In this document: piece after piece, positions 15,001 to 17,093 of the stretch
How the letters are laid out: every line of letters begins with the position of its first letter
How positions within the stretch are numbered: the first letter of the stretch is position 1
Program-made: the position numbers
Virus record (IMG/VR): IMGVR_UViG_2537561716_000030
DNA from: a virus
Lineage: Duplodnaviria; Heunggongvirae; Uroviricota; Caudoviricetes
Strand: one strand, 5' to 3'
DNA: 17,093 nucleotides

Positions 15001-17093
15001 CTGTATTCAGATAACACGCTAAACTTTTTAATAATACATCTTTTTAGACATTTTAAATGAATATTAAAGACTCGCTTCAACTAATCATATACTGATGTAT
15101 TAATAACCAAGACCTTATCTATATACGGCTTTCGAATATCCCATGTTGCACCGCCGGAATAATGCTCACAGGAATATATTTTATTTCCTGTAGCACCAGT
15201 GGATGTGGTATAAATCGGTCGATCATAAGGAGTTCTTTTCCAGTTATAATACCCGACCAGTGCAGGCATGATTGCGCATGGATATCCAAGGTCCTTTTCA
15301 AATTTGATATCAACAGGTATTAACTTCGCGTCAAGCAGCATCATTTCGCCATGATAAATCATCTCACCGTCCGGGTTATACATGGCGATACCATACTCAG
15401 AAGGTGGAGTAACCATATTCGCGAAAGCATAAACCGTCGTAACACCAGGGTTCGTTCCCCTGACAATTACATGAAGCCTTAGTGCATGATATCCATCAAT
15501 CTGTTCATGCGTGTACATGACATCGGCCTTCTTCTCTGTTCTGATAAAGAAAAAACAACTTTTGCCTGACGGGATTGATGTTTTAAAAAAAGACTTTTCA
15601 GTCGCCGGTATGGTGCCTTTGTTGATCAGACACTGCGGCGTAAAACCTGGACTTATCCATACGCTGCCATCCGGCTTCATAATGCTCAAACCATACATGA
15701 CACTTATCCCCAGAATGTATAAATATAAGATCCCATACCCTGCTCAAGATTCGACCACGTCACCGTATTGCCATTAATGGTTATCTTCGGTACTTTCCGA
15801 TCCGCAAATACATTATTCCAGGGAAATAAACAACATACAGCCTGCAATGATTTCCCGTCGGGTTTATTCGTGTACGTCTTTGAGCCAGACTCCGCTGTAA
15901 ATCTGTCCAGGAAAAATACCGGAGTCAGCACGCCCGTAACATTAACGTTATTTCTGTTATAAATGGCAAAACCGTATTCCAATACTCACCTCCTGATCAG
16001 CGTAATCTGCCTATGCGAACAGCCAGTCGTCCATTCTGATCATAAACCTCAATTTTATCATTGCGGATCACCAGTCCTACATTCTGATTAGAGTAACGAA
16101 TTGTCAGTTGCCCTTGTGACGTAACACTGAAAAGGCCTCCAATATTCAGGTTACCCTGAGAATCAACCTGAAAGTTTCCGTTCTGAATAACGGCACTCCG
16201 GATAACTGGCGAAGTGATACTTACCCCGGCTTTTACCTCATCCGCCACAACCTTCCGCGACACCAGTGTTTCAATCACCGCGTCATAAATCATCGCTTTC
16301 GGGATCACAACCTTGCCACCTGATACCGCAAACGGATAGGCGGTGTTATCCGGGTTGTTCGGGTCAAAGACAAACAACTGCGACGCAGAAATTGCAACCT
16401 GACTTACAGGCCTGCCTTCACTGTCTTTTCCGGCGACAATCCCGATCCCCGCAGTGATACCATCAACTCCCGCTTTTTTTGACCACATTGCCAGAAACGC
16501 CTCACCGCCTTCTTTATCCAGTTTAGTGATGCGCTTGTCGACCTCATTAAGCGATTCACTGGTTGACGAATCCAGTGTGCTAATGCGGGTTTCAATACCA
16601 CCAATCGTTCTTGTCGTTTCTTCCCTGAGAGTCCCCACAACTTCGGTTGTCTTAATTGCAGCATCCTTTACAGCCTGCCCCTGCGCGTTTTTTATTTCTT
16701 TACGCAGCTCGGACACAACCGGCGACTTTGCAGCCTCATCGCGGATCTGGTCAATGAACCGCCCCGGGTTTCCTGGAGAGTGTTTTATCTGTGAACTCAG
16801 GCTGCCAGATCATCGTTTCCGATGGAAGCATAATAAGCTTTTTCTGCTTCTGCCGGAGGAGTATGGCCCAGCCTTCCCAGCAATCGTCGATTGTTATACC
16901 AGTCCACCCACGTTAGTGTGGCCAGTTCCACTTCTGCACGGTTTTTCCAGCTCTTACGGTGTATTACCTCCGCTTTGTAAAGACCATTGATGCTCTCGCC
17001 ATCGCGTTGTCACGAGTCGCCTGTACTCCCTGTTGATGCCAGTAATCCGGCTTCTTTTAGTCGCTCCGTATAGGCCAGTGACACATACTGAGA

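What the first reader, a model, noticed from the sequence alone, without database searches (positions are those of the whole stretch)
15997..17093. IS3-family insertion truncates the tail-fibre-like gene, and the IS transposase is itself decayed
The fibre reading frame runs open into the IS end with no start codon, so the element has lost the N-terminal part of its fibre gene. The transposase reading frame carries an in-frame TGA and local changes exactly where the conserved DSYDNA(M)AES motif is expected. The prophage is thus probably defective for virion assembly, yet the downstream five-gene module is fully intact, which is compatible with retention of the module for a host-beneficial function.
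Basis: seen in the sequence. Interest (0 to 1): 0.45.

Follow-up and report, generated by a model that had tools for sequence, protein, structure and literature searches.

The report
IS629 deletion scar in Shiga-toxin prophage
An ordinary, already annotated IS629/IS1203 element has deleted part of the tail genes of a Shiga-toxin 2a prophage of E. coli O157:H7, and the "decay" of its transposase is three missing bases that no public sequence shares and that is more likely an error than biology.

Summary
On the minus strand, 15997-16754 is the C-terminal 252 codons of the 422-aa tail-tip fibre of 933W-type Stx phages. Its frame runs open into an IS with no start codon. The IS is IS629/IS1203 (IS3 family), and it begins at 16755, not 16786. 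Its orfB has an in-frame TGA (17010-17012) and reads *QRDG where intact copies read YDNAMA.

The window matches E. coli O157:H7 strain Vac_07.1 (NZ_CP076241.1) with 0 mismatches over 17,093 bases, apart from three missing bases (A at 16997/16998, AT at 17011/17012). That record has an intact transposase. No fully covered IS copy in 5,426 complete E. coli genomes, and no viral, genome or metagenome contig, carries the lesion. I therefore read it as a probable sequence artefact (about 0.7-0.75) or a private mutation.

The event is not a simple insertion. In Vac_07.1 the far side of the IS is a 3'-truncated head-tail adaptor gene, 5,167 bp of tail genes are missing, and there is no target duplication.

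The rest of the prophage differs by about one base from intact relatives. The intact downstream module therefore says nothing about selection. This is known biology of low interest.

The parts
15997..16754 (-). Pseudogene remnant of the 933W-type phage tail-tip fibre gene. It holds codons 171-422 of 422 plus the stop. The N-terminal 170 codons and the start codon are missing.
   Evidence: Translation is identical to the C-terminal part of the intact protein of strain TR01. Pfam PF09327 Phage_Tail_Tip scores 45.5 bits against a cut-off of 22. PHROG 496 'tail fiber protein'. The intact protein is 100% identical in 933W, VT2-Sakai, Min27, P13374, TL-2011c and PA2/PA8. RefSeq annotates it as 'incomplete; missing N-terminus' in Vac_07.1.
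16714..16716 (-). First possible start codon (GTG) in the open fibre frame. It would give a 239-aa product and has no Shine-Dalgarno sequence at a usable distance.
   Evidence: Gene callers do call this 239-aa ORF in public assemblies.
16755..16757 (.). Junction. The TGA is shared by the IS tip and the fibre gene (3-nt microhomology), so the exact breakpoint is ambiguous within these bases.
   Evidence: Homology to the intact fibre runs to 16757, and homology to the IS starts at 16754/16755.
16755..16779 (-). Right terminal inverted repeat of IS629/IS1203 (TGAACCGCCCCGGGTTTCCTGGAGA).
   Evidence: It matches the left repeat TGAACCGCCCCGGAAATCCTGGAGA at 22 of 25 positions in the reference locus.
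16755..17093 (-). The 3'-terminal 339 bases of a 1,310-bp IS629/IS1203 element, cut by the end of the window.
   Evidence: 100% identity to IS1203 copies of Vac_07.1 and TR01 apart from three gaps.
16797..17093 (-). C-terminal part of transposase orfB (stop codon at 16797-16799), cut by the end of the window.
16997..17012 (-). The lesion. One base (A on the + strand) is missing between 16997 and 16998, and two bases (AT) are missing between 17011 and 17012. The 14 bases between are read out of frame. There is an in-frame TGA at 17010-17012, and YDNAMA becomes *QRDG directly before the catalytic Glu of the DD(35)E triad.
   Evidence: Absent from every public sequence searched.

Best explanation
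The window is the right arm of the argW-integrated, 933W-type (short-tailed) Stx2a prophage of a clade-8 E. coli O157:H7, next to yfdC and mlaA. It is the locus of strain Vac_07.1 or of a clonal sister.

A copy of IS629/IS1203 sits where 5,167 bp of the late operon used to be. The IS keeps both of its own ends. One end abuts codon 171 of the tail-tip fibre gene. The other abuts the 3'-truncated head-tail adaptor gene. There is no target-site duplication, and each junction shares 3 nt with the IS tip.

Inferred mechanism: either an IS629 insertion followed by an IS-adjacent deletion, of the kind described for IS629 with the IS-excision enhancer IEE, or recombination between two IS copies.

Inferred consequence: a prophage that can still be induced, lyse the cell and make Stx2a, but cannot assemble tails.

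The event is very recent. The rest of the prophage differs by about one base from intact relatives, so the intact downstream genes have simply not had time to decay.

The three missing bases in orfB are most likely an error of the sequence from which the window was cut (my estimate about 0.7-0.75). Otherwise they are a private mutation of one of roughly 26 IS copies in the genome. If real, the transposase would stop 72 residues early and lack the catalytic Glu. The element would be non-autonomous, though it could still be mobilised in trans as long as both of its ends are intact.
For: Shown:
- The window equals NZ_CP076241.1 over 17,093 bases, with 0 mismatches and 3 gap columns.
- Annotation of that locus shows the fibre pseudogene, an intact IS1203 transposase with programmed frameshift, and an adaptor pseudogene lacking its C-terminus.
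- Comparison with the intact prophage of TR01 places the deletion at L002 18859-24025 and gives a 1,310-bp IS.
- The flanks are CAA and TCC, so there is no duplication.
- The lost genes are the fibre N-terminus, a PHROG 511 internal virion protein, collagen-like tail fibres (PF01391, PF06820, PF03406) and the end of the SU10 adaptor PF24175.
- At least 25 genomes with the fibre gene annotated intact are 100.0% identical over window 2100-16757.
- The fibre protein is 100% identical in the deposited genomes of phages such as 933W, P13374 and TL-2011c.
- The best full-length match of the lesion region in 5,426 genomes is 97.6%, which is exactly the three gaps, so neither the double lesion nor either single lesion exists there.
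- The 35-mer spanning the lesion has 0 hits in viral, genome and metagenome contigs.

Literature:
- IS629 drives the diversity of Stx2a phages (PMC4587872).
- Vac_07.1 was assembled from PacBio RS II reads (PMC8553066).
Against: - The window ends inside the IS, so the far side is known only from the matching public genome, not from the window itself.
- The source of the window is unknown, and no reads were available. The artefact-versus-mutation call rests on absence elsewhere, not on direct evidence.
- The three missing bases are not in homopolymers, which is where long-read consensus errors usually fall. They also sum to -3, which restores the frame. There is no other difference in 17 kb, whereas a generally error-prone assembly would show more. 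These points leave room for a real complex mutation.
- No intermediate genome was found, with either junction alone, that would separate 'adjacent deletion' from 'two insertions plus recombination'.
- The presence of iee in this genome was not tested.
- Loss of infectivity is inferred, not measured.
Confidence: 0.8

Rival explanations
1. The transposase lesion is real. It would be a private, recent complex mutation (two small deletions 14 bp apart, net -3) that kills this IS copy.
For: - The lesion is unambiguous in the window.
- It is not in homopolymer runs, and it is the only difference in 17,093 bases. This is unlike a generally low-quality assembly.
- IEE is described as an error-prone polymerase with primer and template dislocation (bioRxiv 10.1101/2023.06.07.543989). 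Clustered small deletions inside an IS during aberrant copy-out are therefore conceivable. This link is my inference only.
Against: - The otherwise identical public record has the intact sequence.
- No fully covered match among 22,323 matching places in 5,426 genomes shows either deletion, alone or together.
- There are 0 hits in three contig collections.
- The lesion lies 80-96 bases from the end of the window. If that is also a contig end, it would be a typical place for consensus errors (my speculation).
Confidence: 0.25
2. A simple IS insertion splits the fibre gene, and the N-terminal half continues on the far side of the IS. This is the scenario the reader said would confirm the insertion.
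For: - The window alone cannot exclude it, because it ends inside the IS.
- Simple IS1203 insertions do occur in this tail module, for example in O111:NM FWSEC0005, where the two halves of the upstream gene flank the IS.
Against: - This fibre-IS junction, in this IS orientation, occurs in one of 5,426 complete genomes. There the far side is the adaptor gene, with 5,167 bp missing and no duplication.
- That genome matches the window with 0 mismatches.
- No phage record holds the junction.
Confidence: 0.04
3. The deletion arose from two independent same-orientation IS629 insertions, one in the adaptor gene and one in the fibre gene, followed by homologous recombination between them. It was not a one-step IS-adjacent or IEE-type deletion.
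For: - It also predicts one IS, no duplication and loss of the interval.
- IS629 hits this region repeatedly in other lineages.
- The same prophage already carries a second IS1203 copy near stx2.
Against: - No genome with only one of the two junctions was found among 5,426.
- 3-nt identity between the IS tip and the flank at both junctions has a chance of about 1/64 each. It is expected under microhomology-mediated joining but not under this model. The argument is weak, since both figures are small.
Confidence: 0.3
4. The intact genes downstream of the fibre (the 2,791-aa LPD38 protein and its neighbours) are kept by selection for a host benefit in a decaying prophage.
For: - All of these ORFs are intact in the window.
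- The giant protein has a weak DarB-like antirestriction match, phrog_10089 at 3e-29.
Against: - The same genes are present, and 100.0% identical at the DNA level, in at least 25 prophages whose fibre gene is intact.
- The locus differs from its sister prophage by one true SNP in 36 kb. No time has passed in which neutral decay could have been seen.
- The capsid, portal, terminase and lysis genes, which are useless without tails, are equally intact.
Confidence: 0.07

Closest known systems
IS629 / IS1203 (IS3 family, IS150 group) of enterohaemorrhagic E. coli
   Same: - The window carries the terminal repeat TGAACCGCCCCGGG... and the orfB C-terminus.
- It is 100% identical to the IS1203 copies of Vac_07.1 and TR01 apart from the three missing bases.
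- In the matching genome record the element is 1,310 bp, with an orfA/orfB programmed frameshift.
   Different: - As read in the window, orfB has a premature TGA and a disturbed YDNAMA motif.
- There is no target-site duplication, because the flanks come from two different genes.
IS629-associated genomic deletions and IEE-promoted excision or deletion in O157 (Ooka et al. 2009; Kusumoto et al. 2011, both as cited in PMC9943667)
   Same: - DNA next to an IS629 copy has been lost.
- The size (5.2 kb) falls in the reported range of a few nucleotides to more than 40,000.
- Short microhomology is present at the junctions.
   Different: - The IS itself is retained rather than excised.
- IEE involvement is inferred. 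The iee gene was not looked for in this genome.
IS629-driven diversification and decay of Stx2a prophages (PST1/PST2 phages in PMC4587872; the defective Stx2a prophage of RafaelaII in PMC8553066)
   Same: - It is the same phage type and the same argW site.
- IS629 copy number and position are the main differences between near-identical phages.
- The sister strain RafaelaII is reported to lack endolysin, terminase, portal and tail-fibre genes.
   Different: The PLoS One paper on Vac_07.1 does not mention insertion sequences at all, and its one mention of a tail fibre concerns RafaelaII. The lesion is annotated only as pseudogenes in RefSeq.
Tail-tip fibre of 933W-type Stx phages (933W L0124/L0125 region; P13374 'phage tail fibre tip'; Pfam PF09327, related to the C-terminal part of lambda J)
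   Same: The remnant is 100% identical to residues 171-422, and the PF09327 domain is retained.
   Different: It lacks the N-terminal 170 residues and any start codon with a ribosome-binding site.

Membership tests
IS3 family (IS629/IS1203) | Termini 5'-TG...CA-3' with imperfect terminal inverted repeats of about 25 bp | tested here: met
   16755-16779 reads TGAACCGCCCCGGGTTTCCTGGAGA. In the reference locus the other end is ...TCTCCAGGATTTCCGGGGCGGTTCA, matching at 22 of 25 positions.
IS3 family (IS629/IS1203) | Transposase sequence matches the IS3-family model (rve-type DDE domain) | tested here: met
   The window fragment aligns to positions 285-369 of the 369-position NF033516 model (64.7 bits, partial). 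The intact orfB of an identical copy scores 316 bits against a cut-off of 160. Pfam rve, rve_3 and HTH_Tnp_1 are on record for the reference copy.
IS3 family (IS629/IS1203) | Intact DD(35)E catalytic triad with K/R seven residues after the Glu | tested here: not met
   Intact copies have exactly 35 residues between the second Asp (HSDKGSQY) and the Glu (MAES), followed by ESINGLYK. In the window a TGA precedes the Glu and one residue is lost. The public record of the same locus is intact, so this failure may be an artefact.
IS3 family (IS629/IS1203) | orfA and orfB joined by a programmed -1 frameshift | not testable with these tools
   This feature lies outside the window. In the matching record it is annotated 'programmed frameshift' with an AL1L pseudoknot.
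IS3 family (IS629/IS1203) | 3-bp direct target duplication flanking a simple insertion | tested here: not met
   The flanks in Vac_07.1 are CAA on the fibre side and TCC on the adaptor side. This is expected, because the flanks come from two genes 5.2 kb apart.
Phage tail-tip fibre (PF09327, 933W type) | Phage_Tail_Tip domain above the Pfam gathering score | tested here: met
   45.5 bits against a cut-off of 22, at residues 86-164 of the remnant.
Phage tail-tip fibre (PF09327, 933W type) | Complete 422-aa reading frame with its own start | tested here: not met
   Only residues 171-422 remain. The first start codon is an internal GTG.
IEE-type IS629-adjacent deletion | Loss of DNA next to the IS, no target duplication, and microhomology at the joints | tested here: met
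   5,167 bp are missing relative to TR01, with 3-nt overlaps (TGA and TCA) at the two joints. The same pattern is compatible with IS-IS recombination.
IEE-type IS629-adjacent deletion | iee gene present in the genome, and dependence on active transposase | not tested
   No tool call addressed iee in Vac_07.1. The literature says IS629 excision is promoted by IEE in a transposase-dependent manner and that deletions occur adjacent to the IS (PMC9943667).

The most novel reading that the evidence does not exclude
The three-base lesion could be real and could be a scar of error-prone synthesis during aberrant IS629 copy-out. Together with the sister genome 57_142493, this locus might then record IEE-type excision by 2-nt microhomology joining, followed by re-insertion at the same spot. 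In that genome the same IS sits between the same two truncated genes but is flipped, with 2 bp less of the fibre and a GA on both sides. That would be a natural snapshot of local IS 'flip-in-place' and self-inactivation.
Probability: 0.08. Interest if true: 0.35.

Novelty: already known. Interest (0 to 1): 0.1.

Why it matters
It matters little beyond bookkeeping. IS629 insertions and IS-linked deletions are the well-documented main source of variation between otherwise identical Stx2a prophages of O157:H7. The locus is already annotated as pseudogenes plus IS1203 in RefSeq.

Practically, the strain probably carries a Stx2a prophage that can still produce toxin on induction but cannot spread as an infectious phage. 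This is relevant to strain typing and to risk of stx transfer, not to new biology.

The methodological point is that an apparent pseudogenising lesion in a repeated element should be checked against the matching public record, and against reads, before it is read as decay.

Tried and rejected
- **Exact 35-mer across the lesion.** I searched viral, genome and metagenome contigs and found nothing.
- **Look-up of the lesion-truncated OrfB (223 aa) in public assemblies.** The source of the window therefore stays unknown.
- **The other two genomes that covered the query.** They turned out to be different events. O111:H8 7-58 72A has the IS 150 bp further into the fibre gene, with its own deletion. 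O111:NM FWSEC0005 has a simple insertion in the upstream gene.
- **Search for genomes with only one of the two junctions.** None exist among 5,426.
- **Templated origin of the lesion.** By eye I found no convincing quasi-palindrome or direct-repeat template.
- **Apparent SNPs between Vac_07.1 and 57_142493 near the IS.** I first took them as evidence of independent origin. Six of the seven are just the IRL/IRR differences picked up because the IS is inverted, which leaves one true SNP in 36 kb.
- **Ooka et al. 2009 (PMC2765283).** The paper is not held in the library.
- **Plus-strand 178-aa ORF at 16454-16990.** It crosses the junction antisense to both genes, and I regard it as spurious.
- **First Pfam call.** It failed on a frame error and was repeated.

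Full report
**Where the window comes from.** A megablast of 15900-17093 against 5,426 complete E. coli genomes found the whole stretch in only three records. One of them is E. coli O157:H7 strain Vac_07.1 (NZ_CP076241.1), from bovine cattle in Argentina. It matches the entire 17,093-base window with 0 mismatches and three gap columns. Its annotation shows the window to be the right arm of a Stx2a prophage next to yfdC and mlaA. On the minus strand the order is: a 2,791-aa LPD38 protein, five small hypothetical genes, hok, lom, two small genes, a DUF1983/tail-tip-fibre pseudogene ('missing N-terminus'), and an IS3-like IS1203-family element. The paper on this strain places its Stx2a prophage at argW and states that the genome was assembled from PacBio RS II reads (PMC8553066).

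**The fibre remnant.** On the minus strand, 15997-16754 encodes 252 residues that are identical to residues 171-422 of the 422-aa 'phage tail tip fiber protein' of strain TR01.
- The intact protein is 100% identical in the deposited genomes of 933W, VT2-Sakai, Min27, P13374, TL-2011c and PA2/PA8, and 119 phage records are at least 99% identical.
- The remnant keeps the PF09327 Phage_Tail_Tip domain, at 45.5 bits against a cut-off of 22. The full protein matches PHROG 496, 'tail fiber protein'.
- The frame stays open for 19 codons into the IS, up to a TGA at 16810-16812. Its first possible start is a GTG at 16714-16716, with no ribosome-binding site at a usable distance.

**The IS and its boundary.** Homology to IS1203/IS629 copies begins at 16754/16755, and homology to intact fibre genes ends at 16757. 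The terminal inverted repeat TGAACCGCCCCGGGTTTCCTGGAGA occupies 16755-16779, and the orfB stop codon is at 16797-16799. Family membership is clear. The fragment aligns to the C-terminal part of NCBIfam NF033516, and an intact identical copy scores 316 bits against a cut-off of 160. The reference copy has HTH_Tnp_1, rve and rve_3 domains and an annotated programmed frameshift.

**This is a deletion, not a simple insertion.** In Vac_07.1 the IS is 1,310 bp long. Its other end abuts a DUF6682/SU10-adaptor gene that lacks its C-terminus. Alignment with the intact prophage of TR01 shows that TR01 positions 18859-24025 (locus L002), 5,167 bp in all, are missing. The lost stretch held:
- the first 170 codons of the fibre;
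- a 541-aa homologue of internal virion proteins (PHROG 511);
- a small ORF;
- an 89-aa and a 408-aa collagen-like tail-fibre gene (PF01391, PF03406, PF06820);
- the last ~70 codons of the adaptor, PF24175.

The three bases outside the two IS ends are CAA and TCC, so there is no target duplication. Each joint shares 3 nt with the IS tip. Neither junction occurs alone in any other complete genome, and no phage record has the junction.

Two routes fit these facts. One is an insertion followed by an IS-adjacent deletion, as described for IS629 together with the IS-excision enhancer. [quoted passage not shown] The other is recombination between two IS copies. I favour the first only mildly.

**The transposase lesion.** Against the Vac_07.1 copy, the window lacks an A between 16997 and 16998 and an AT between 17011 and 17012.
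- The 14 bases in between are read out of frame.
- A TGA appears in frame at 17010-17012.
- GDSYDNAMAESINGLYK becomes GDS*QRDGESINGLYK.

In intact copies exactly 35 residues separate the second Asp (HSDKGSQY) from the Glu of MAES, and a Lys follows seven residues later. That is the DD(35)E-K signature of IS3-family transposases (established knowledge). If real, it would end the protein 72 residues early.

**Is the lesion real?** The evidence points to an artefact but does not settle the matter.
- A 121-base query across the lesion found 22,323 places in 5,426 genomes. Every top-ranked full-length match was 97.6%, which is the three-gap alignment to the intact sequence. Rows are ranked by coverage times identity, so any copy with only one of the two deletions would have ranked higher. 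None exists.
- The 35-mer spanning both deletions has no hit in the viral, genome or metagenome contig collections.
- The GenBank and RefSeq records of the otherwise identical locus are intact.
This is the closest available equivalent.

I could not get at reads, and I could not find the window's source.

Against the artefact reading: the deletions are not in homopolymers, they sum to -3, and nothing else differs in 17 kb. I put artefact at about 0.7-0.75 and a private real mutation at about 0.25. Either way it concerns one of about 26 IS629/IS1203 copies in that genome (27, 26 and 27 matching places in the Vac_07.1 record).

**Consequences and the 'retained module' idea.** Loss of the fibre N-terminus, the other tail-fibre genes, an internal virion protein and the adaptor C-terminus makes failure of tail assembly very likely. 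This is inferred, not tested. The stx2a, lysis, terminase, portal and capsid genes remain.

It does not hold.
- Window 2100-16757 is 100.0% identical to the same region of at least 25 genomes whose fibre gene is intact, including TW14359 and EC4115. By bit score this is about one mismatch.
- The module is part of every 933W-type phage (PHROGs 616, 601, 594, 596, 611 and 610).
- Genes that are useless without tails are just as intact.

The deletion is simply too young for decay to show.

**Context from relatives.**
- IS1203 has hit this tail module independently in O111:H8 7-58 72A (fibre remnant of 909 nt plus a deletion) and in O111:NM FWSEC0005 (a simple insertion in the upstream gene).
- The Japanese isolate 57_142493 (AP026097.1) carries the same deletion as Vac_07.1, with one true SNP in 36 kb. 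Its IS is inverted, and two more bases of the fibre are gone.
- IS629 is reported as the main driver of variation within Stx2a phage types (PMC4587872).
- A strain that clusters with Vac_07.1, RafaelaII, is described as having a defective Stx2a prophage (PMC8553066).

**Verdict.** The biology is the known IS629-driven erosion of Stx prophages. The 'decayed transposase' is uncorroborated and probably not real. Novelty: already known. Interest: low.

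Noticed in passing
L005 1654-2964 / L009 20697-22007 (AP026097.1, strain 57_142493), compared with window 16755-17093: A near-identical sister prophage, with one true SNP in 36 kb, has the same IS between the same two truncated genes, but the IS is inverted. The adaptor-side joint is identical. The fibre-side joint has lost 2 more bases (GGTTCA|GACCAG against GGTTCA|TTGACCAG), and GA flanks the IS on both sides. This suggests an in-place flip, perhaps by excision and re-insertion. Each orientation occurs in only one of 5,426 genomes.
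   Followed up: partly
L008 about 20655 (AP026095.1, strain 53_142304), equivalent to window 16755-16757: This strain has a 421-aa fibre with an in-frame 3-bp loss (ATGATG to ATG) exactly at the position where the IS joins the fibre in the window. It could be slippage in a tandem triplet or a footprint of IS excision. I could not distinguish the two.
   Followed up: partly
L001 34759-36069 (Vac_07.1) and L009 36599-37910 (57_142493): A second IS1203 copy lies between stx2B and the SASA esterase gene. It is inverted relative to the tail-module IS in Vac_07.1 but in direct orientation in 57_142493. Direct copies would allow a roughly 15-kb deletion of the lysis, terminase, portal and capsid genes. 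That resembles the published description of RafaelaII's defective Stx2a prophage (PMC8553066).
   Followed up: no
window 2204-10579 (-): A giant 2,791-aa LPD38-domain protein (PHROG 616, function unknown) has a weak DarB-like antirestriction match at residues 2349-2679 (phrog_10089, 3e-29). It is conserved in all 933W-type phages and is followed by five small genes of unknown function (10648-13828).
   Followed up: no
window 1-2100 (mlaA, yfdC): About 23 of the 24 mismatches between the window and strain TR01 fall in the roughly 2.1 kb of chromosomal flank, while the 14.6 kb of prophage differs by about one base. This suggests a recombined chromosomal segment in TR01. The window also starts exactly on the last base of the mlaA stop codon.
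   Followed up: no
L003 9095-11258 and L004 10363-13121: There are independent IS1203 events in the same tail module of O111 Stx prophages. One is a second truncation-plus-deletion of the fibre gene at a different site. The other is a simple insertion that splits the upstream internal-virion-protein homologue.
   Followed up: partly
window 13885-14990 (-): A hok/gef toxin gene and an Ail/Lom outer-membrane protein gene sit between the fibre remnant and the large module. They are typical lambdoid morons and are intact.
   Followed up: no
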